From Naegleria gruberi (taxonomy: Eukaryota), in assembly GCA_000004985.1 (NCBI GenBank), contig GG738880.1: DNA of 64,000 bases; one strand, 5' to 3'. Of the stretch, positions 6,257 to 60,666 are shown one piece after another. The position numbers and the translations under genes were made by a program. Under the pieces are notes generated by a model. The model did no database searches. It was not told the origin of the DNA and was given only the letters and a program-made list of their open reading frames with translations. Positions within the stretch are counted from its first letter, which is position 1. The number at the start of each line of letters is the position of its first letter.

Positions 6257-6330
6257 GCCTTCCTAGCTCAGTTGGCAGTAGCGCTGTCCTAGTAAGACAG
6301 AGGTCTTGGGTTCGATTCCCAAGGGAGGCA
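6257..6330 (+). tRNA. tRNA-Thr (anticodon AGT)
   Basis: 74-nt cloverleaf. The acceptor stem gccttcc/ggaggc has one G-U pair. The D arm is agctcagttggcagtagcgc. The anticodon stem ctgtc/gacag has loop cTAGTaa. The T arm is ttggg-ttcgatt-cccaa with the GTTCGATTC box. A T-run lies downstream. Confidence 0.85.
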
Positions 6331-10342: not shown

Positions 10343-10514
10343 TGTTTTTTTTGATGTGTTTTTGAAAAGATAACAAAAAGTGCGAACAATTTAAAAAGGA
10401 TCTTTTTGAGTTGGGAACTTTTTTGGAAGTTATCACAATGTCTAAATTTTTACTAAAAGAGCTTAAGTGAATAAAGCAATCGAAAAATAAAAATGGTGTT
10501 TATTTACAAGGTTT

Positions 10515-11590
10515 TTATTTGAAGAAAATGTTGTATCTCATTGAGAATGATGGACTTGCTATTGGTGAGAGCCCTTCTTCTTTATCTGAAGGTAGAATGA
10601 GAGATGTCTCAGGGTCAAATCTTGGTAGGATGAAACTATCCACTAGTCCTTTAATCTCAGACTCATTAAGGAATGACTCTTCTTTGTTGACTTTTCTTAT
10701 TGGTGTAACATGTGGCGTCTCAGTGATGTTGTTTCTCTCCATCAAGTCAAGAATAATATTATTAGCTGAGGTTAAATCACTGAGAGATTCATTCATTTCC
10801 TCATCAAGATCCTTCATTGTTGTCTCACCATAGAGTTGAATGTTAGAATCTACAATTTCTCTGCTGATTTGAGCAATCTCATCCTCAACAAAATGTTGAT
10901 ATTGAGACTTTACACTTCTCCTTAAAACTTAGGACAGATTATATTTACGTTAACTTACTTTGTCTCGCTATCGCTGATGGCATTCTTCAATTCTGTTTTC
11001 AATTGATCCTTAAAGGTGTCTTTCTTCTTATCCTTCTTTGTAAGGATTGGAGAAGGTAAGAGATCGACATTTTCCTTTTCCTCGTTCGTTTTCAAATTGT
11101 TGCTGGTTGATTGAACAATAATTGGAGGATCAACTGTTGAAACTCTTGATGATTTTCCTCTTTGGAATATCTTGGATTTTTCCTCAATAAACTTGTAAAG
11201 TGGAATGATGGTAATGATGATCATAATGTTTACACTTACATTTGTAATGTCCTTGAGTGACTTTCTCTTGGGTTTCTTCCTGACTGGAGTACTAATATCC
11301 TCCATGATTTCTTCCTTTGGTTTGTTGTCTTTCTTCTTCTTTACCTTCTTGATTTGAGGTTCTTCATCATCAAAGGCTTTTTTCCTTTTGTTAGATTTCA
11401 AAGATGACGAGGGAGGAGGTTGAATAGTTTCACTTGCTGATGGTAAACTAGGTGGTTGAGTTACTAATAGAGATTGAAAGGAAACATCATTAGATTGACT
11501 ACTTGATGATTGAGTATTAATAGCACTTTGTGATGATTGACCCTTAATCTTGCTTTTAAATTGCTCAATTTTTGATTTTGGACCTTTCAT
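10515..11590 (-). CDS. Hypothetical K/S-rich protein with one predicted TM helix. Probable two exons at 11590..10959 and ~10914..10515, with a 38-44-nt intron.
   Basis: The upstream ORF ends ACAAA|gtaagt, and acceptor gagaag| (or ttttaag|) continues in frame through the downstream ORF MKDLDEE.... The TM segment is VSVNIMIIITIIPLY. I recognised no domain. Confidence 0.4.
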
Positions 11591-44000: not shown

Positions 44001-44367
44001 GACAAGTGAGGCGAAACTAAAAGTTGTACATTCTTGGAAAAATTCTTCCGAAATCTCAACGAGGAATTAATCATTAAGGATATCCGCTCCTCAAGATTCA
44101 TCAGGTCCAAATAATATAATAGGATTGGACTCCTCTCGGTGTACACCGGTGTACTTGAGTGGAATGAGGAAATTTTACTGTTGAAAATTCAGATAATATT
44201 TTGGCCGTATTGAATCTTAATTATAACACGGCCAAATTATTTTATATAAATTTGGGGTTCCACAAATAAGAATATATTAACTTCTATTTCAACACAGTGA
44301 AAAGTTTGTAAATACCATTACAAATATTATCAAGCTGCTTAAGATTAAGGTTTTAAGGAAATGAATG

Positions 44368-44487
44368 GCTACGGCCATATCACGATGAATGCACCTCATC
44401 CCGTCCGATTTGAGAAGTTAAGCATCGTCGAGCCACATCAGTACTGAGGTTGGAGACAACTTGGGAACCTGTGGTGCTGTAGTCTTT
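44368..44487 (+). rRNA. 5S ribosomal RNA gene
   Basis: GGCTACGGCCATATCACGATGAATGCACC...GAGAAGTTAAGCATCGTCGAGCC...AGTACTGAGGTTGGAGACAACTTGGGAACCTGTGGTGCTGTAGTC aligns along its whole length with eukaryotic 5S, including GCTACGGCCATA, GAAG.TAAGCA, AGTACT and GTGCTGTAG. A T5 terminator lies at about 44485..44489. Confidence 0.9.
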
Positions 44488-52356: not shown

Positions 52357-53517
52357 ATGCCGAAGGAATCAAAGAAGAAGAAGAATAATACTAAAATTGA
52401 AATCACTCACGAGATGATGGTAAGTAAACGAAATTCACATCCGTCGTCAACTTTATCATAATGTAAAGAAACCATACTTTTACTGTCCTCAAACTCTTGC
52501 TGCAAGATTATTGGGAGTCAGCATTAGCACATTGAAGAGAAGATTTTATGATCTCCATATTGGAAGGTAAGTTTTCCATACTGGAATCAGCCCAGTTCAA
52601 TTATTGTTATTACTATTATATTGTAACACGTCATTTATATTTTTCATAATAACCAACATGTTTGTAAAAACTAACACGGTTTCTGAAATATTTCACAATC
52701 CAATACAATTCTGTTACTTGATCGTTAACAATATAGATGGCCATATCAATGCATCTCTTTAAGTGAAAGAAAGAAGAGTATCTACTTTCTTATGAATGAA
52801 ACTGAACCTGAGGATGAAAAGGAAATTGATGAAAAGACAATGCATCACCTCAGACATGCATTCAAAGATGCTAGTAAGCCACTTCTCTCAATGAATGTTA
52901 ATCAAACCACTCAATTCCACTTTTGCTCATTCGTTGCTCAAGAAGAAGAAAATGCCAACTCTGACCATTCCAATTCCTTCCAAGAATCCAATGGAAAGGC
53001 CTTCACTGCACAAGGTCAAGCTCCACATCTTGGTGGTGGCAATGGAAAGAAGATTGTTATGCGTGAGATGGAACTTGGTAAAAAGGAAATGATACAACGT
53101 TCCAAGTCATCTCATTCATTGAGTTCTCTTTCTGGAGATAACCATCCACCCTACCACCCTTACAACTCCCCTGCTTTGACCGCTTTTCCATTGAAAAAGT
53201 CTTGTGCGGTCAGTGATAATGCTTCCAATATGTTGACTAATACCTATACTACTCAACCTCATGGTATTAGTGCATTATCATCTAACATTAAGACTTTTTC
53301 ACCTACCTCACCACACGGTGTTTGGCAGAGTTGCAATACTATGAGTTTGTCAGTTAACTATCCTTCACAATGTTACGTTTCACAACACTCACCATTGAGT
53401 TGTGGAACAACAAACTCTTCCTCTCCAAATTCTCCTCCAGCAATAATGTTTGGAATGGGTCACGAAAATCATGTCATTTTGCCTGAGATTCGTATTCAAG
53501 ACACCATTCAACATTAA
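52357..53517 (+). CDS. RWP-RK domain protein (paralog 1). Exons 52357..52419, 52469..52566 and 52737..53517, with introns of 49 and 170 nt.
   Basis: Exon 2 encodes KPYFYCPQTLAARLLGVSISTLKRRFYDLHIGR, and the AG|gtaagt...caatatag|A splice completes ...GRWPYQ, the RWP-RK signature. A basic K-rich stretch precedes it. The C-terminus is S/H/P-rich low complexity. Confidence 0.7.
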
Positions 53518-53775
53518 GCTGTGTTGGTGACAAATTACATCATTGAATTCAATTGCATTCAATGATGAGCATTTATATATACCTCAAACTCTGTGTATTC
53601 CAGTTGGAGAGGACGAAAACCTAGCTGTAATTTATTGCTATCAATTACAGAATGTTGACAGTTCAACTCCATGAGAACCTTCTCTTTAGCTGTGGAATAC
53701 AATCAGTGTAAACAACAACAAAACAATCCTAATAAATTATTTATTCACTTAAAAAGATCTTTTGAATGGTTTTAT

Positions 53776-53832
53776 AAGATTCGGTTTTTATTGAGCGACT
53801 ACAGCTATTTACTGTAAAGATTTAGGTGGGTA
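53776..53832 (+). repeat. Dispersed ~57-bp repeat, copy A. Copy B is at 55454..55511 in the same orientation.
   Basis: aagattcggtttttattgagcgactacagctatttactgtaaagatttaggtgggta compared with aagatacggtttttattgagcgactacagttatttactgtaaagatttgtggtgggta shows 3 differences. A weaker second similarity (tttgtWtcgaatSctWW...tttcttcagtt) lies at 54465 and 55712. Confidence 0.7.
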
Positions 53833-55453
53833 CGGCGACATAAAATCCCCATTTTATTGCTCGAGATCTAAGGAATGATCTTAAAAGTGTTTTCAGGTAA
53901 TTAGCGAATTCATTTTCATTAAAAGGATATGGGTGATCGATCTCCTTCACCAATCTTACTGCATAGGGAATAAACATTCAGGTTGAGCAAGAATCTTAAA
54001 ACCATACGATGCAATTATTTTTTGTGATTGTGAAATTCTATTGGTGATGGTTCACATTATCTGAAAGTGATTCTGCACTGCTTTTCAAATCCACTTCTCG
54101 TTTGAATTAAATACTGTCATCAATTATCGCTCATTGTCTACACTTGGAGGAACATATGACAACTCAATGAAGAATTTTTGTAATTCAGACATATTGAAGA
54201 ATTGAGAAAATGTTTTTTAAATCCATGACCATCTCTTTCTAAGGGAAAATGTAAAGCAGTCAGTCCAAAAGAATTTGTTAAAATTGTGTGGAATCTTAAT
54301 ATTGATTTTCAATCCACTGTAGAGCTTTTAATTCTGAAATATGTTAATTGACCATAAACGCGCATCATTCGCCAACCTGTCAACAATCATGCCATAAATC
54401 CTTAATTAAACGCTGCTAAACATTCCAGTTGCATTAATCCAATAATTGTAAAGGAAGAGGCTTTGTTTCGAATGCTAATTTCTTCAGTTGATTCCCAAAG
54501 GTTTCGATGGTGATGGAATTTTTTTGAGTTTTCTATTGAAAAGATGAAACAATTATTTGCTTCGACACTCCTCAGAATAAGCAAACTCAAATAAAACAAT
54601 GTGGTCAGAGGTTTGGATTTCTATTGATTAAACAAATAGAAATTAACCCAAAAAAGAGCAACTCCCGTTCGATCCCAAAACTAAAAAGATTCTTGTCATA
54701 AATGGTCAGGATTTCAACCGATCTAGATTTTGTTAGATATCAAATCAAATATTACATCCTGCCGCTATCCAGGCAAGAATTCATATGTTAACCCAATGTT
54801 AATGGTACTTAACTCTTTTCAAATCAATTAAGAAACAGATCTAAGATTTCTTCCGCTTCCATAGAACTAGGAAATTGTTTACCAAATACTCAACAAAAGA
54901 AAGCAACTCCACACCATCTAGAGGAAGAACATCCTCAAATTCTAGCTGTCATCATTTGTCTAATTTTGAGAATGGTAATCCAATAGAAAAATAATATCTA
55001 ATTTTTAGGAACAAGATAACGGATTGGAAGTGTAGCATGTTGGTGATGACTCTTTTCTCATTGAGTGGGCTGTGCTTAATTGAAACATCAGAAATTCAGT
55101 TGTAGTTACTGAATTGCAAAGTTGAAGATTCACATCATCGATCCTTCTCTCCACAACAAGAGGAGAAGAACCAAGTCAATTTTTGCTAAAATGTTCATTT
55201 CCTTGAAAATGATGTTGTTGCTTGTGTTTAAAACTCATTGTATTCTACAGCTCATTGAGAAGGTTCTTTTTGTGAGGATGATAATTGCCTCCGTAATCAA
55301 GAGTCAATAGTAACTTTACACTACAGGAAGATAACCAGCACCCAGGTAGTGAGAATAGTGAGAAAATGAGAGTTGTGTGTAAAGGCTCATTCAAAAGCCT
55401 CATGAATGGTCCAGAAATGATATCGTAGTTGAATATTAGGATGCTCCAAGGTC

Positions 55454-55511
55454 AAGATACGGTTTTTATTGAGCGACTACAGTTATTTACTGTAAAGATT
55501 TGTGGTGGGTA
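55454..55511 (+). repeat. Dispersed ~57-bp repeat, copy B
   Basis: See copy A. Confidence 0.7.
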
Positions 55512-56481
55512 TTATGCGACGCAAAAAAATCACCGTCTCAGTTCAGTCATCATCCAATCCTGGACAAAACATTCGAGTCAACTCGTTGCCAAAAATGCAT
55601 TGACTTTCTTTGTGAGTTATAGACAGTCATCCTTCACTATTTTGCATTCCTTCCTTGGTTCTAATGTTGAATTACAACGAAACGCAGAGTAATCATTAGC
55701 CAAAGATTTGTATCGAATCCTTTAAAGATTTCTTCAGTTCCACTTGCTGTTTTCGAAAAATTTGACGCTCAACCCCATCTAAGCCATTAAAAAATCAGAT
55801 TATGCCTTCGTTTAAATACCATTTATGGATGGCGAACAAATAAAAAACCAGAATCTCAGTTTGCAACCCAGAAATTTCTAACAATATCGTTGTATTCTTC
55901 GTTGATGGATTATGTTGTTGATTAGCTGCATCTAATCATCAAGAGATATGAAATAATAAATAGAAAGACTTGCTCCTTACAAGGTTTGTAGATTTCAGTT
56001 AATTTACATTTTACCTCGTATCATATACCAATGTTTGACCTTCATACAGCAAAAATATCAAAACCCACGCTACAAAAAACAGAGATTGCAATAAAGCATC
56101 TGGAGTAATTCCAAATGTGTAAAATCCTTCGCCCTCTAGTGACCATATTTAGATAGAATCAGCGAAAATTTTTGGTCGTGCCTATTCCACATAAATTCTG
56201 GCCCACACAGAAAAACAGCAACATGAAGCATAAATGAAAATCCGTACAGATGCATTATAAAACCCTCTCCGAACCATTGGCTCACTCTTCTCACTTTAAA
56301 AAAACAAAACAACAATAACAACTATCACTGACCACAGTAATACTACTATTACGTGTCATTTCAAAGATACTTTAAACCACCGCAATTATTTCACTCTCTC
56401 ACGTGTAAGCCAACTAAGTAACCTTCCAAACACAAGAAAAATCAAAAAGTTACCAACCTACTACTGCTAATACCCAACACA

Positions 56482-57315
56482 ATGATCAGTCAACATACCT
56501 CATTAAATTATTCATCGAGTAATACTAATACATGTATTCCATCACATTATAGCAGACCACTTTCACCTCCAACTAATACATCACTTCCTTCGATACATTC
56601 CCTGAAAGAATTTTCTCATCAACCACAATACTCTCAGAGTTGTCCAGTTAGAACAGCAACCCATACTAATTCACAATATCCTCACCACTACTATCCTTTG
56701 ACCCATCACCATACTAATATTGATCAACAATATGCCTATGCCCCTGTAAATAATACTACCAATCTTTACCATAATAACAGTAATAGTAGTCATTCAGATG
56801 CTCTGTCGAGTGAAGACAGCAACACATCTAATCAGCATGTAAATAGAACTTCTCCTTCCCCAATTAAAGTTAAGAATAACAAGTCAGATAACAAACAAAA
56901 AGTGAAATCTCCAAATACTACTAATGCTCCTAATACTACTAATGGTATCAAAAAGAAGAGAAAGACTAAAAAGAATAAGATTATCATTGCAACTTCTGAA
57001 TTGGTTAGATGCATGACTTTACCACAAACAGTAGCTGCTAAAAAACTGAAAGTTTCTCTCAGTACTTTGAAGAGACGTTTCTATGAATTGAGTGTTGGAA
57101 GATGGCCATCAATTGCTCCAACAAATGAACCTGGATCTTCCTCAAAGACTGAAGAAGACATGTATGTGGAAAGTACAGATGCTACACCAGAACAAAAACT
57201 TTCACTTTCATTCATTATGAATAAGAAAGAATGTCCAGAATCGAGTGTAATTGATAATCTTTCAATGGTCATTCTGAAAGTTGCCTTTACTTTAAACACA
57301 AACGAAGAAAAATAA
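56482..57315 (+). CDS. RWP-RK domain protein (paralog 2), single exon
   Basis: KKKRKTKKNKIIIATSELVRCMTLPQTVAAKKLKVSLSTLKRRFYELSVGRWP parallels paralog 1 (KKKKNNTKIEITHEMMKPYFYCPQTLAARLLGVSISTLKRRFYDLHIGRWP). The N-terminus is H/Y/S-rich. Confidence 0.7.
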   Translation: MISQHTSLNYSSSNTNTCIPSHYSRPLSPPTNTSLPSIHSLKEFSHQPQYSQSCPVRTATHTNSQYPHHYYPLTHHHTNIDQQYAYAPVNNTTNLYHNNSNSSHSDALSSEDSNTSNQHVNRTSPSPIKVKNNKSDNKQKVKSPNTTNAPNTTNGIKKKRKTKKNKIIIATSELVRCMTLPQTVAAKKLKVSLSTLKRRFYELSVGRWPSIAPTNEPGSSSKTEEDMYVESTDATPEQKLSLSFIMNKKECPESSVIDNLSMVILKVAFTLNTNEEK

Positions 57316-57783
57316 ATTAATTGTACATTGTAAAAATCAACTTTAACTGTTTCTACATTGAAAATCTCTTTGGATAATGAAATATTCAAATATTCAAATA
57401 TTCAAAATTATTCGTTTCGTTAATATTCTCAATTTATTGCACAAAACGCTATTCAAAAATATTCAGAATCTTTTTGCGTTAAAAAAATTTTGGATACCTA
57501 TCATCAGAATCACACAAGACTATCACGCACCAAGAAATTTTTTTATTCTTGCTGCCCTCTCCTCTTTCCTTCAGAAGGACGACACAACAAGCTATTACCA
57601 CAAAGAACACCCGATTATACAAAACACATTTATTTGTTGAATAGTAGTACTTGTTCTCTCTTACATTTCCCACCTAAAAAGATCTTTTGATCTAATTCCA
57701 TACCCTATTTTCATCGTCATCATTGCTCCTTCTCCTTTTTAAAATTCCATAACAATTCCCTGTAGAAATAACTTCTTGCTACA

Positions 57784-60666
57784 ATGAATAAGAGAAAATT
57801 TGATGAAGAGGAAGTTCCTCAACAGGAAGACCCTCTTAATTTTGTAGCGTTAGACTCCACTCTTAATCCTGCACAATTCCCAACAACAACAATAACAACA
57901 ACAGAAAATTTAATTTCCACCAATACAAGTAACTTAACTTCCCATCCAACCGACTCTTCCAATCCTCATCCCAACTCTGATCAACTAACACCTAAAAAGA
58001 GAAAAATTAATAGTATTTCTCCTAGTGATTTAAATCACATTCACACATTCACTCCAGACTCTACAACATTGGATTTTAGAATTATGAATTTAAAATCAGC
58101 TTCCAGTTCTGCACCAGAGGATGAAGGTATTCATGATCCGAATATACCTGAAATAACATCTTCAGTAATGAATGACGATAGCATCTTTTTTGATAATGAA
58201 TTAGATGAAAGTCTTTACCTTTCTTCAGCATTTTCTTCCACAGAACGTGAAGAAATAAGAATGCAAACAAAGAAATTTATTGAAATTCAAAAATTGAATG
58301 AACAACAATATGTTCAACATGCTGTTAAATATGTAAGAAGTATTTCTGAAGTCAACAGAATTATCAATGTTGGAGAATGGTTCGGTACAGAAGAGCTAGA
58401 AGAATCCTTTGTTCAGGGCATTACACCCTCCCAAAGTCAAGAAAATTTCAAAATTCCACAAGTCTCCTTGATGAATGCAACAAATCCAAAAGCTCAAATT
58501 TCTTCAATAACCACTCCAGAAATTGTCTTTCTACCAAAGGTATTCTCCTCTTTGATAAAACCTCACCAGTTAGAAGGAATTAGATTTTGTTGGAGTCATA
58601 TCATCCTTCCTCCAAATGATACCCTTAGAGGATGTATCCTTGGTCACTCCAATGGCCTAGGAAAAACATTAACAGTTATTGCTTTTTCCTATCTCTTCCT
58701 CAAGTATAATAAGGGTAAGAAGATTTTAATCATTTGTCCTCGTTCTGTTATTCAAAACTGGGAAAGAGAAATTTCTTCATGGTTACATTCACTAAGATTG
58801 GAATACATTCCATGTTATGTACTTGACCATGGTAAAGACTCTAGAGTTAGTAGGTTAGAAAAACTTCAAGAATGGGATTCAAAAGGAGGCATTCTCTTGA
58901 TGTGTTTCACTTCATTTTCAAGATGGACCGAAACACAATATTCCAACATTGATTCCAAAAGCTGTCAAAATAGATTTGATTTCGAAAAGAAGATTTCTGA
59001 CTATTTAAGAGGATGTGATCTAGCAATTGTAGATGAAGGGCATAGATTGAAGAATCCAAGCTCATCAATCAGCAAAGCTCTTTATTGCAATATTCAAACA
59101 AGAAATCGTATTGTTTTGACAGGAGTTCCACCTCAATTTGATCTTATGGAATACTATACCATTTTAGATTGGATTAGACCTGGCTATTGGTCCTTGAACG
59201 AATTCAAACACTTGTTCATTGATCCTATGAATAATCACTCAATTGAATCCATCAAACAAAGATATTATGTACTCAAACACGAATTGAGCTATTTTGTCCA
59301 CCGAAAAGATCAATCAGTACTTAAATCCTATCTTCCACCAAAAAGAGAATATGTTATTCAATTCCATCCTCATGATATCCAAGTATCACTTTATAATAAC
59401 TTTATACAATCTAGAGACGGAGATGAAAAGTGTATATACTATGTTACTTGCATGCTTCAAAAGATCCTAAACCATCCTGATTGGGTAGTTGATTATTGCC
59501 AAGCTAATAATCCAAAAGACTCCAACACTTCATCTATCAAATTATTCTCAGATGAAAGATTGGACTTGGAGGGAAGCAAATCCTCACATGCTGACTTGAA
59601 CTCCTATTCATTAAACACTGAGATTTCTGATGAAGATATGAGTGTTGCTCCATCAATCAGTAACACCATGTTTAACATGCTAGAAAAAGCTGAAAAGTAC
59701 AAGGATAGTTCAGAGAATATAGAATGGGCTAGCCCTGTTCATTCCAGAAGTTACATTATGAATGCCATCGATCATTCTCCAAAAATGCTTTGCTTGATTA
59801 GAATGATAGAGCAATGTTTCTTATCCAATGAAAAGATCCTAGTTTTTAGTCAATATCAAGAAACTCTAGATATTATTGAGAGAATAATTAATAATGTTAA
59901 TATCACTACAGGTTTACCATTAGAAGACGAACATCAACCACTTAAAAGAAAGCTCAAAAGAAATTTGGATTATTATAGATTGGATGAATCAATGTCAGTT
60001 TCACTTGGGCAAAGTGTTGTAGACTCATTCAACTCATCCAATGATGCACCTTTATTATTGATCAGTACAAAAGTTGGTTCCTTAGGTATTGACTTGTCTA
60101 CTAGTCAAAAGATTGTCTTGTATGATGTTTGTTGGGATTCCTCTTGGGATAATCAAGCAGTATTTAGATCTTTCAGATATGGTCAAACAAAACCAGTTTC
60201 CATCTATAGATTTGTCATGTATAATACTATTGAAAGCAAAATATTTGAAAAATTGTGTACTAAAACCTCTCCATTTAAGAATCTAAGCGAGGATAAAAAG
60301 GATTTCCTCAACAAGGATGACTTTGTTCCTTACACAAAACCTCCTTCCGAAAATGTAACCATTTCAAAAACTGACCAATTACTTTCTAATGTTTTGAACA
60401 GTGATATTAGAATTTTGAAATACCTTCGATCAATCTTTGATTATGAAAGTCTTTATATTGAAGCTATAGATGACATGACATCAAACGAACAAACAAATTA
60501 TAAGAGTCGGTATGAATTGGACTTTTCTAACTATACCACCAAAGATAGGAATAGAAACAATTCTACAAGCGAGGAAGGTGACGAAAGCGAAGAAAGTGAA
60601 CAGTATGAAGATGAAACAAGTTCAGATTCAGAACAATTCGAAAGTGAAGAAGAAGAAATTGAATAA
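57784..60666 (+). CDS. SNF2-family DNA-dependent ATPase (Rad54/ATRX/ARIP4-like)
   Basis: Helicase motifs: LKPHQLEGIRFCW...GCILGHSNGLGKTLTVIAF (motif I), LAIVDEGHRLKN (motif II, DEGH), and VLTGVPPQ. The helicase-C region is LLISTKVGSLGIDLSTSQKIVLYDVCWDSSWDNQAVFRSFRYGQTKPV. The C-terminus is an acidic tail. Confidence 0.85.
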   Translation: MNKRKFDEEEVPQQEDPLNFVALDSTLNPAQFPTTTITTTENLISTNTSNLTSHPTDSSNPHPNSDQLTPKKRKINSISPSDLNHIHTFTPDSTTLDFRIMNLKSASSSAPEDEGIHDPNIPEITSSVMNDDSIFFDNELDESLYLSSAFSSTEREEIRMQTKKFIEIQKLNEQQYVQHAVKYVRSISEVNRIINVGEWFGTEELEESFVQGITPSQSQENFKIPQVSLMNATNPKAQISSITTPEIVFLPKVFSSLIKPHQLEGIRFCWSHIILPPNDTLRGCILGHSNGLGKTLTVIAFSYLFLKYNKGKKILIICPRSVIQNWEREISSWLHSLRLEYIPCYVLDHGKDSRVSRLEKLQEWDSKGGILLMCFTSFSRWTETQYSNIDSKSCQNRFDFEKKISDYLRGCDLAIVDEGHRLKNPSSSISKALYCNIQTRNRIVLTGVPPQFDLMEYYTILDWIRPGYWSLNEFKHLFIDPMNNHSIESIKQRYYVLKHELSYFVHRKDQSVLKSYLPPKREYVIQFHPHDIQVSLYNNFIQSRDGDEKCIYYVTCMLQKILNHPDWVVDYCQANNPKDSNTSSIKLFSDERLDLEGSKSSHADLNSYSLNTEISDEDMSVAPSISNTMFNMLEKAEKYKDSSENIEWASPVHSRSYIMNAIDHSPKMLCLIRMIEQCFLSNEKILVFSQYQETLDIIERIINNVNITTGLPLEDEHQPLKRKLKRNLDYYRLDESMSVSLGQSVVDSFNSSNDAPLLLISTKVGSLGIDLSTSQKIVLYDVCWDSSWDNQAVFRSFRYGQTKPVSIYRFVMYNTIESKIFEKLCTKTSPFKNLSEDKKDFLNKDDFVPYTKPPSENVTISKTDQLLSNVLNSDIRILKYLRSIFDYESLYIEAIDDMTSNEQTNYKSRYELDFSNYTTKDRNRNNSTSEEGDESEESEQYEDETSSDSEQFESEEEEIE

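What the first reader, a model, noticed from the sequence alone, without database searches (positions are those of the whole stretch)
52357..57315. Two paralogous RWP-RK regulators flanking a 3-kb ORF-free interval that contains a dispersed ~57-bp repeat
Both genes encode a basic K-rich stretch followed by a near-identical RWP-RK DNA-binding domain (…LKRRFYDLHIGRWP and …LKRRFYELSVGRWP). In paralog 1 the domain is N-terminal and split by two introns, and the RWP codons are themselves split by a 170-nt intron. In paralog 2 the domain is C-terminal and intronless. RWP-RK factors control nitrogen responses and mating or gametogenesis in plants, algae and amoebae. The 2.96-kb interval between them has no convincing ORF but holds two same-orientation copies of a ~57-bp element (53776..53832 and 55454..55511, about 95% identical) plus a second weaker shared motif (54465 and 55712). 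The interval might hold a non-coding RNA, a degenerate mobile element, or shared regulatory modules of the paralog pair.
Basis: partly seen in the sequence, partly recalled or inferred. Interest (0 to 1): 0.5.

Follow-up and report, generated by a model that had tools for sequence, protein, structure and literature searches.

The report
Conserved Naegleria RWP-RK gene pair
Two already-annotated RWP-RK transcription-factor genes of the amoeba Naegleria gruberi lie head to tail around a 3-kb non-coding spacer whose "dispersed repeat" is just a local two-copy duplication, so the locus is real but mostly ordinary.

Summary
The window is Naegleria gruberi. Both genes are real and already in the databases. 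The second ORF is NAEGRDRAFT_80437 (277 aa). UniProt calls both "RWP-RK domain-containing", and both pass Pfam's RWP-RK threshold. RWP-RK is a published expanded family in Naegleria, with 39 genes in N. gruberi.

New here: the same head-to-tail pair occurs in N. fowleri, N. lovaniensis and an environmental Naegleria-like contig, but not in Willaertia or Acrasis. The two genes are old paralogs; each groups with its own orthologs at 99% bootstrap.

The spacer varies from 1.1 to 3.0 kb and shows no detectable similarity between N. gruberi and the other three. In N. gruberi it has no ORF above 87 aa, no Pfam or Rfam match, and no annotated gene.

The repeat (R) is real: a 48-nt core at 96% identity, 73 nt at 86%. 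It has only two copies, both inside the spacer, so "dispersed" is not shown. A second two-copy element (X, 55 nt, 80%, inverted) lies beside it.

The spacer is most likely the 3' end of the first gene plus upstream regulatory DNA of the second, possibly enlarged by the local duplication that produced R and X. The function of R is unknown. Interest is low.

The parts
52357..52419 (+). Paralog 1 (NAEGRDRAFT_80436), exon 1: MPKESKKKKNNTKIEITHEMM, a basic stretch and the start of the domain.
   Evidence: Spliced translation is identical to EFC42300.1.
52420..52468 (+). Paralog 1, intron 1: 49 nt, GTAAGT...AG.
   Evidence: Removing it is needed to reproduce the database protein.
52469..52566 (+). 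Paralog 1, exon 2: helix-turn-helix core of the RWP-RK domain (...PQTLAARLLGVSISTLKRRFYDLHIGR).
   Evidence: Pfam PF02042 at 41.3 bits. AlphaFold helices 29-36 and 40-49 with pLDDT above 90.
52567..52736 (+). Paralog 1, intron 2: 170 nt, GTAAGT...AG. It splits the Arg codon of RWP.
52737..53517 (+). Paralog 1, exon 3: WP, the conserved SIYFLMNE...LRHAF extension, then a low-complexity tail predicted to be disordered, and the stop codon.
53538..53567 (.). 30-nt near-perfect palindrome starting 21 nt after the paralog 1 stop. Possibly a 3'-end hairpin (inference).
53518..56481 (.). Spacer of 2964 nt with no annotated gene, no ORF above 87 aa, no Pfam or Rfam match, and no similarity to the spacers of other Naegleria.
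53674..53725 (+). Element X, copy a.
   Evidence: 80% over 55 columns to the reverse complement of 55213-55267, E = 8e-7. Only two copies in the window.
53776..53845 (+). The core 53776-53823 is 96% identical to copy b.
54462..54489 (+). Chance-level.
   Evidence: E = 0.12 in a restricted search.
55213..55267 (-). Element X, copy b, inverted relative to copy a.
55454..55526 (+). Element R, copy b, about 1.0 kb upstream of the paralog 2 ATG.
55707..55739 (+). Chance-level.
56050..56481 (+). C- and A-rich stretch directly upstream of paralog 2 (GC skew -0.33 to -0.53). It has the same strand bias as transcribed genes of this window. Probably the promoter and 5' leader (inference).
56482..57315 (+). 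Paralog 2 (NAEGRDRAFT_80437): a single exon of 277 aa. The RWP-RK domain is at residues 170-210, followed by a ~30-aa insertion and the SLSFIMN...LKVAF extension.

Best explanation
This is a head-to-tail pair of anciently diverged, short, PB1-less RWP-RK transcription-factor genes of Naegleria gruberi. The pair is shared by all four Naegleria lineages I could fetch.

Each protein carries three parts. A basic stretch is followed by a small helix-turn-helix domain (PQT.AA..L.VS.STLKRRFY.L..GRWP). A family-specific C-terminal extension (S..F..N...D..S...L..AF) comes last. By inference from the family, they act as sequence-specific DNA-binding regulators.

The 3-kb interval is non-coding intergenic DNA. 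It comprises the 3' end of gene 1, the upstream regulatory region of gene 2, and gene 2's C/A-rich leader. It evolves fast in both sequence and length.

In N. gruberi the spacer is the longest of the four species. It contains two species-specific two-copy elements: R (direct) and X (inverted). These are best read as products of local duplication and rearrangement. Whether that duplication is what enlarged the spacer is only weakly supported.

The R core is far better preserved than its flanks. It is therefore either a recent copy or a constrained cis-element, for example a binding site in the gene 2 upstream region.

Shown: gene identities, domain membership, conservation of the pair, absence of coding and Rfam signals, and the copy number of R and X within the window. 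Inferred: DNA binding, the regulatory role of the spacer, and any function for R.
For: - Exact identity of both products to annotated N. gruberi proteins. The accessions EFC42300, EFC42301 and EFC42302 run consecutively through gene 1, gene 2 and the next gene, so no CDS is annotated between them.
- Pfam RWP-RK scores above threshold.
- AlphaFold models residues 1-100 as a confident helical domain (pLDDT 77-97) with a disordered tail.
- The same pair, in the same order and orientation, is found in three other sources. They are N. fowleri (spacer 2.5 kb), N. lovaniensis (1.95 kb) and environmental contig L006 (about 1.1 kb).
- In two N. fowleri strain annotations the orthologs have consecutive gene numbers (PMC8296547, Additional file 5).
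- Neighbour-joining tree: Naegleria P1 orthologs group at 99.6% bootstrap and P2 orthologs at 99.4%. N. gruberi P1 and P2 are sisters in 0 of 500 replicates.
- Willaertia, Acrasis and a further metagenomic contig have only one RWP-RK domain per 17-21 kb locus.
- Spacer: no DNA-level or protein-level similarity to the other species. No Pfam hit for the ten longest frames. Weak codon-usage scores. Rfam gives only E = 0.21.
- R and X are significant but have two copies each, all local. The other species' spacers have no comparable repeats.
Against: - No expression data were available, so an unannotated non-coding transcript or small ORF cannot be excluded.
- Evidence that R and X are remnants of one larger duplication is weak and depends on scoring. 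The flank alignment scores 30.5, against a maximum of 29.5 in 104 real intergenic controls. That holds only with lenient gap costs; with stricter costs there is nothing.
- X is inverted in one copy and its distance to R differs (50 versus 186 nt), so a simple tandem duplication does not fit.
- The genome-wide copy number of R is unknown.
- N. fowleri and N. lovaniensis share three alignable non-coding blocks in their spacer (60-78% identity). This hints at real functional content that I could not identify.
- The fold search gave no significant match; all E values exceed 2.
Confidence: 0.7

Rival explanations
1. R and/or X are fragments of a genome-wide dispersed mobile element of N. gruberi (MITE, SINE or solo-LTR-like), and the spacer is long because elements inserted there. 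In one version, X-a and X-b are the decayed terminal inverted repeats of a ~1.6-kb non-autonomous DNA transposon spanning 53674-55267.
For: - X-a and X-b are inverted repeats 1.49 kb apart.
- R has a sharp 5' boundary.
- Both elements are absent from the orthologous spacers of three other Naegleria, as expected for lineage-specific insertions.
Against: - There are no further copies in 64 kb.
- There are no transposase or reverse-transcriptase remnants.
- No matching target-site duplication flanks the X pair (left ...CCATG, right TTTTG...). R lacks TG...CA ends, terminal inverted repeats, and a primer-binding site or polypurine tract (direct reading).
- R-a lies inside the putative element and R-b outside it.
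- Exact-match scans of JGI metagenomes and IMG/VR found nothing.
Confidence: 0.15
2. The spacer encodes an unannotated non-coding RNA. It could be a long non-coding RNA that regulates the flanking transcription factors, or two copies of a small RNA gene marked by R.
For: - It is the longest ORF-free gap in the window.
- Other ORF-free gaps in the window do hold RNA genes: 5S rRNA at 44367-44485 and tRNA-Thr at 6257-6330.
- The pair with a kilobase-scale spacer is kept in four Naegleria lineages.
- Blocks are conserved between N. fowleri and N. lovaniensis.
- R is preserved much better than its flanks.
Against: - There is no Rfam match. The best is SNORA15 at 25.7 bits against a threshold of 47, E = 0.21, and it overlaps the coding end of gene 1. 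Nothing was found in the other species' loci.
- R folds no better than shuffles on either strand (z = -0.4 to -1.2).
- I saw no C/D or H/ACA boxes on reading R and its flanks.
- There is no strand-composition bias of the kind seen over transcribed genes until about 56050.
- No sequence is conserved between N. gruberi and its relatives.
Confidence: 0.12
3. The spacer holds an unannotated spliced protein-coding gene.
For: The gap is unusually long for this gene-dense genome. Some frames score weakly positive for codon usage, up to 0.20 bits per codon over 47 codons.
Against: - The longest frame is 87 aa. The frame across R-b is closed by stop codons on both sides in R-a (direct reading).
- There are no Pfam hits.
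- No translated similarity to the other species' spacers survives correction for 117 queries.
- No gene is predicted here in the N. gruberi annotation, the N. lovaniensis annotation or at least three N. fowleri annotations.
- Genes in this window are intron-poor with long exons.
Confidence: 0.04

Closest known systems
RKD-type and MID-type RWP-RK transcription factors (plant RKD1-5, Chlamydomonas/Volvox MID) (comparison from my own knowledge of the family)
   Same: Short proteins whose only recognisable module is the RWP-RK helix-turn-helix domain, preceded by a basic stretch. They have no PB1 domain. Pfam PF02042 is matched above threshold. One Acrasis relative is even named 'RKD3' by its annotators.
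   Different: - The canonical RWPxRK is reduced to RWP (RWPYQC and RWPSIA).
- A heterolobosean-type C-terminal extension (S..F..N...D..S...L..AF) is present.
- Phylogenetic placement against plant RKD and algal MID was not done.
- No role in gametogenesis or mating is known in Naegleria, where sex has not been observed (own knowledge).
NIN-like proteins (NLP), the nitrate-responsive RWP-RK factors of plants
   Same: The same DNA-binding domain family. A plant PB1 + RWP-RK protein is the most distant significant hit of the profile search (P0105, E = 8e-4).
   Different: There is no PB1 domain and no long N-terminal sensor region. Sequence similarity is confined to the ~45-aa core.
The expanded RWP-RK family of Naegleria (39 genes in N. 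gruberi, 26-27 in N. fowleri; Herman et al. 2021, PMC8296547)
   Same: These two genes are members of that published set. Their N. fowleri orthologs are listed there as g3092/g3093 and g4260/g4259.
   Different: The paper does not discuss this pair, its conservation or its spacer. The RWP-RK gene it highlights as upregulated in mouse-passaged N. fowleri (V212_g4821) is a different family member.
Local low-copy segmental duplications in intergenic DNA
   Same: Two copies within 1.7 kb, lineage-specific, and without mobile-element hallmarks.
   Different: Identity is very uneven: 96% in a 48-nt core against essentially unalignable flanks. One of the two elements is inverted.

Membership tests
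RWP-RK domain family (Pfam PF02042) | Profile match at or above Pfam's gathering score. | tested here: met
   41.3 and 35.7 bits against a cut-off of 29.3.
RWP-RK domain family (Pfam PF02042) | Invariant RWP tripeptide after the LKxxxR helix. | tested here: met
   ...STLKRRFYDLHIGRWP and ...STLKRRFYELSVGRWP. W55 is invariant and P56 at least 90% conserved in 66 homologs.
RWP-RK domain family (Pfam PF02042) | The RK dipeptide of the eponymous RWPxRK motif. | tested here: not met
   RWPYQC and RWPSIA. The Pfam matches stop at profile positions 44 and 43 of 49. An 'ERKK' follows 8 residues later in paralog 1 only.
RWP-RK domain family (Pfam PF02042) | Helix-turn-helix DNA-binding fold. | tested here: inconclusive
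   AlphaFold gives helices 18-24, 29-36 and 40-49 at pLDDT above 90. Foldseek against the PDB gives no significant hit (best E = 2.2). The weak hits are mostly HTH DNA-binding domains such as Fis, NtrC, Hin, MarR and Lrp.
NLP subfamily | C-terminal PB1 domain. | tested here: not met
   No PB1 (PF00564) match in either protein at E <= 0.1.
RKD/MID-like subfamily | Short protein with RWP-RK as its only domain. | tested here: met
   313 and 277 aa with no other Pfam domain. The rest of the protein is predicted to be disordered.
RKD/MID-like subfamily | Groups with plant RKD or algal MID in a phylogeny. | not tested
   The tree contained heterolobosean, Legionella and metagenomic sequences and one plant NLP, but no RKD or MID sequences.
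Dispersed repeat or mobile element (MITE, SINE, LTR/TRIM) | Many copies scattered over the genome. | not testable with these tools
   Only 64 kb of the genome was available, holding two copies of each element, all in the spacer. Metagenome and viral exact scans were empty.
Dispersed repeat or mobile element (MITE, SINE, LTR/TRIM) | Structural hallmarks: terminal inverted repeats with a target-site duplication, or TG...CA LTR ends with a primer-binding site and polypurine tract, or transposase or reverse-transcriptase remnants. | tested here: not met
   R has no terminal inverted repeat and no TG...CA ends. The X pair has no matching flanking duplication (direct reading). No Pfam hits in the spacer frames.
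Known structured RNA families (Rfam 15) | Covariance-model match at the gathering score. | tested here: not met
   The only hit is SNORA15 at 25.7 bits against 47, E = 0.21. The whole-window scan finds only 5S rRNA and tRNA, both elsewhere.

The most novel reading that the evidence does not exclude
The pair plus spacer is a conserved regulatory cassette of the genus Naegleria. Two RKD/MID-like factors would be held in linkage because the spacer carries shared control elements or a non-coding RNA, with R as its best-preserved piece in N. gruberi. The cassette would govern a life-cycle switch (encystment, amoeba-to-flagellate change, or the long-suspected cryptic sexual cycle), by analogy with MID and RKD in algae and plants.
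Probability: 0.07. Interest if true: 0.55.

Novelty: already known. Interest (0 to 1): 0.17.

Why it matters
The finding matters little as it stands. Both genes are annotated, and the expansion of RWP-RK factors in Naegleria is published.

There are two modest additions. First, this particular pair of old paralogs has stayed adjacent in four Naegleria lineages while the flanking genes differ between N. gruberi and N. fowleri/N. lovaniensis. Second, the spacer between them turns over completely. That marks the pair as a reasonable candidate for co-regulated transcription factors in an organism where almost nothing is known about transcriptional control.

The R element would become interesting only if it proves to be conserved among close N. 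gruberi relatives or bound by a factor.

Tried and rejected
- Rfam on the interval and flanks at E <= 1, on the whole window, and on the N. fowleri and N. lovaniensis loci: nothing relevant.
- RNA folding of R on both strands: no better than shuffles.
- Pfam on the ten longest spacer frames: nothing.
- Codon-usage scan of all spacer frames: weak and short.
- Translated and DNA comparison of the spacer with the N. fowleri, N. lovaniensis and L006 spacers. This included nhmmer profiles of R, of X and of the N. fowleri/N. lovaniensis conserved blocks. No significant match.
- Exact-pattern scans for R in JGI metagenomes (two patterns) and IMG/VR: empty.
- The N. gruberi assembly is not in the contig index. 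Genome-wide counting of R was therefore impossible. Only small N. gruberi-like metagenome contigs could be fetched, and they lack R and X.
- Test for a larger decayed duplication around R: suggestive under lenient gap costs only, so left open.
- Search for a hidden third RWP-RK copy or pseudogene in the spacer, or next to the Willaertia and Acrasis genes: none.
- Fold search of the modelled domain against the PDB: no significant hit.
- Idea that the N. fowleri P1 and P2 introns share a position, which would be evidence of intron-containing duplication. Rejected: they lie 5 nt apart and in different phases.
- Literature search for the locus tags and accessions, and for RWP-RK in Acrasis: nothing.
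- Bacterial promoter and terminator scan: irrelevant for this eukaryote.

Full report
ORGANISM AND GENES

An exact-sequence look-up places the window in Naegleria gruberi. Its introns are 49 and 170 nt, both GTAAGT...AG. The model translates to a 313-aa protein identical from end to end to EFC42300.1 / XP_002675044.1, NAEGRDRAFT_80436.

The single ORF 56482-57315 is EFC42301.1, NAEGRDRAFT_80437 (277 aa). The next gene, 57784-60666, is EFC42302.1, an SNF2-type helicase. The three accession numbers are consecutive, so the public annotation has no CDS in the interval. UniProt already labels both proteins 'RWP-RK domain-containing protein'.

Pfam confirms this: 41.3 bits (residues 16-58) and 35.7 bits (residues 170-210) against a gathering score of 29.3. 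The 170-nt intron does split the Arg codon of RWP (AG|A TGG CCA). The two proteins are 36% identical over 114 residues, E = 2e-15.

The similarity goes beyond the Pfam domain. Both proteins carry a downstream motif: SIYFLMNE...LRHAF in paralog 1 and SLSFIMN...LKVAF in paralog 2. In paralog 2 it is separated from RWP by an insertion of about 30 residues. Neither protein has the canonical RK of RWPxRK, and neither has a PB1 domain. They are therefore short, RKD/MID-like in architecture, and not NLP-like.

An AlphaFold model built on 66 homologs gives a confident helical N-terminal domain (pLDDT 77-97 over residues 1-100; helices 18-24, 29-36, 40-49 and 86-95). The remaining 200 residues are predicted to be disordered. 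Foldseek against the PDB gives no significant match. The weak hits are mostly helix-turn-helix DNA-binding domains.

WHAT IS ALREADY KNOWN

Herman et al. 2021 (PMC8296547) list RWP-RK as the third-largest transcription-factor family in Naegleria. They count 39 genes in N. gruberi and 26-27 in N. fowleri (Additional file 5). The N. fowleri orthologs of this pair appear there with consecutive gene numbers in two strains: 986 g3092/g3093 and 30863 g4260/g4259. Those annotations therefore predict no gene in the spacer either.

The RWP-RK gene that the paper highlights as upregulated after mouse passage is a different family member. The paper states that the role of the family in amoebae is unclear. 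No paper in the library mentions these locus tags or accessions.

COMPARATIVE CONTEXT (NEW HERE)

The ortholog of paralog 1 was located in N. fowleri (L001) and N. lovaniensis (L002). In both, a paralog 2 ortholog follows on the same strand after 2.5 kb and 1.95 kb respectively. No gene is called in either gap. An environmental Naegleria-like contig (L006, 41% GC) carries the same pair with a spacer of about 1.1 kb.

The genes flanking the pair differ between N. gruberi and N. fowleri/N. lovaniensis. The pair has therefore stayed together while its surroundings changed.

In Willaertia magna, Acrasis kona and another metagenomic contig, both P1-type and P2-type genes exist. Each sits alone, with one RWP-RK domain per 17-21 kb locus.

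A neighbour-joining tree of 35 domain sequences groups the Naegleria P1 orthologs at 99.6% bootstrap and the P2 orthologs at 99.4%. It never makes N. gruberi P1 and P2 sisters (0 of 500 replicates). Willaertia and Acrasis P1-types join the P1 clade with weak support, 57%. The two genes are therefore old paralogs, not a recent tandem duplication.

Intron content is fluid. P1 of N. fowleri, N. lovaniensis and L006 has an extra intron inside the domain that N. gruberi lacks. N. fowleri P2 has a 52-nt intron inside the domain.

THE SPACER

The interval 53518-56481 is 2964 nt. It is the longest stretch of the window without a 100-codon open frame: 2907 nt, against 1321 nt for the runner-up. Two of the other gaps hold RNA genes: a 5S rRNA at 44367-44485 and tRNA-Thr at 6257-6330.

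Within the spacer I found the following.
- The longest frame is 87 aa.
- Codon-usage scores are weak.
- The ten longest frames have no Pfam match.
- No translated or nucleotide similarity to the spacers of the other three Naegleria survives multiple-testing correction.
- The best Rfam hit is SNORA15 at E = 0.21, below threshold and overlapping the coding end of gene 1.
- The strand-composition bias typical of transcribed genes in this window (C- and A-rich sense strand) starts only at about 56050. That is 430 nt before the paralog 2 ATG, and probably marks its promoter and leader.
- A 30-nt palindrome starts 21 nt after the paralog 1 stop.

N. fowleri and N. lovaniensis share three alignable non-coding blocks in their spacer (60-78% identity). 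Several other intergenic regions of the same loci do not align at all. Some functional non-coding content is therefore plausible in that lineage. It has no counterpart in N. gruberi.

THE REPEATS

R is real. The cores 53776-53823 and 55454-55501 match at 46/48. With two small gaps the similarity runs to 53845 and 55526 (86% of 73 columns). E is 3e-14 against the whole window.

R has exactly two copies in 64 kb. It has none in nine related loci. It gave no exact matches in JGI metagenomes or IMG/VR.

It lies at 53674-53725 (+) and 55213-55267 (-), 80% identical over 55 columns, E = 8e-7. It too has only two copies. X lies 50 nt upstream of R in copy a and 186 nt upstream in copy b, but in opposite orientation in the two copies.

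R does not fold better than shuffled sequence on either strand. The reading frame that is open across R-b is closed on both sides in R-a. R has no LTR or TIR hallmarks. The spacers of the other species have no comparable internal repeats.

I tested whether R and X are islands of a larger decayed duplication. The result is inconclusive. The 3' flanks align collinearly with a score of 30.5, against a maximum of 29.5 in 104 real intergenic controls. That holds only under lenient gap costs.

INTERPRETATION

The finding is a correct reading of an annotated pair of RWP-RK transcription-factor genes. The spacer is best explained as fast-evolving intergenic and regulatory DNA. In N. gruberi it is the longest of the four species, and it contains a local two-copy duplication with a rearrangement.

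The R core is much better preserved than its flanks. That means either recent copying or constraint as a cis-element. I lean slightly towards a cis-regulatory site in the upstream region of 80437, but this is inference.

A dispersed mobile element, a non-coding RNA and a hidden coding gene remain possible, with decreasing probability. The first could be settled in minutes with the full assembly, and the other two with RNA-seq.

VERDICT

The genes, the introns, the ORF-free interval and the repeat are real. 'Dispersed' and the second motif are not supported.

Novelty is 'already known' for the genes and the family. The conserved linkage and the R and X elements are small new observations. Interest is low.

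Noticed in passing
P0065 and P0082; not in the window: Legionella maioricensis and L. saoudiensis encode RWP-RK proteins. They align over the whole heterolobosean-type extended domain, including the C-terminal ...L..AF helix. This looks like gene transfer from an amoeba to Legionella, possibly a eukaryote-like effector.
   Followed up: partly
window 44367-44485 (+): A stand-alone 5S rRNA gene (Rfam 105 bits) sits in a 1-kb ORF-free gap between protein-coding genes.
   Followed up: no
window 6257-6330 (+): tRNA-Thr (AGU), found by ARAGORN and Rfam.
   Followed up: no
window 53538-53567: A 30-nt near-perfect palindrome (CATCATTGAATTCAATTGCATTCAATGATG) starts 21 nt downstream of the stop codon of NAEGRDRAFT_80436. 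It is a possible 3'-end hairpin.
   Followed up: no
L001 10366-10643 and 15054-15105; L002 about 10345-10560; L006 about 194-320: Intron gain or loss inside the RWP-RK domain. The paralog 1 orthologs of N. fowleri, N. lovaniensis and the environmental contig have an extra intron in the Ser41 codon (SI|STLKRR), which N. gruberi lacks. N. fowleri paralog 2 has a 52-nt intron 5 nt further 3' (ST|LKRR), which N. gruberi and N. lovaniensis lack.
   Followed up: partly
L001 12741-13159, 13422-13499, 13857-14018 (and L002 12302-12695, 12907-12987, 13263-13435): Three non-coding blocks are conserved between the N. fowleri and N. lovaniensis spacers (60-78% identity), while several other intergenic regions of the same loci do not align. 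They are candidate regulatory or RNA elements with no counterpart in N. gruberi. A 164-aa minus-strand ORF at L001 13203-13697 has no N. lovaniensis equivalent.
   Followed up: partly
window 53746-53765 and 57671-57690: A 20-nt match, CAC[T/C]TAAAAAGATCTTTTGA, containing the 12-nt palindrome AAAAGATCTTTT. One copy lies 10 nt upstream of R-a and the other about 100 nt upstream of the helicase ATG. Statistically it is at chance level, E about 0.6.
   Followed up: no
L009, L010 (ENA ERZ929261 / run ERR1078381): A public metagenome contains contigs encoding a protein identical to an N. gruberi RWP-RK protein (P0092). N. gruberi or a very close strain is therefore present in that sample. It could be mined for a second allele of this locus.
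   Followed up: no
L004 10893-13825: In Willaertia magna, a 2.9-kb stretch with no called gene follows the P1-type gene P0010. It holds no RWP-RK domain. It does contain open frames of 100 codons or more, so it may simply be under-annotated.
   Followed up: partly
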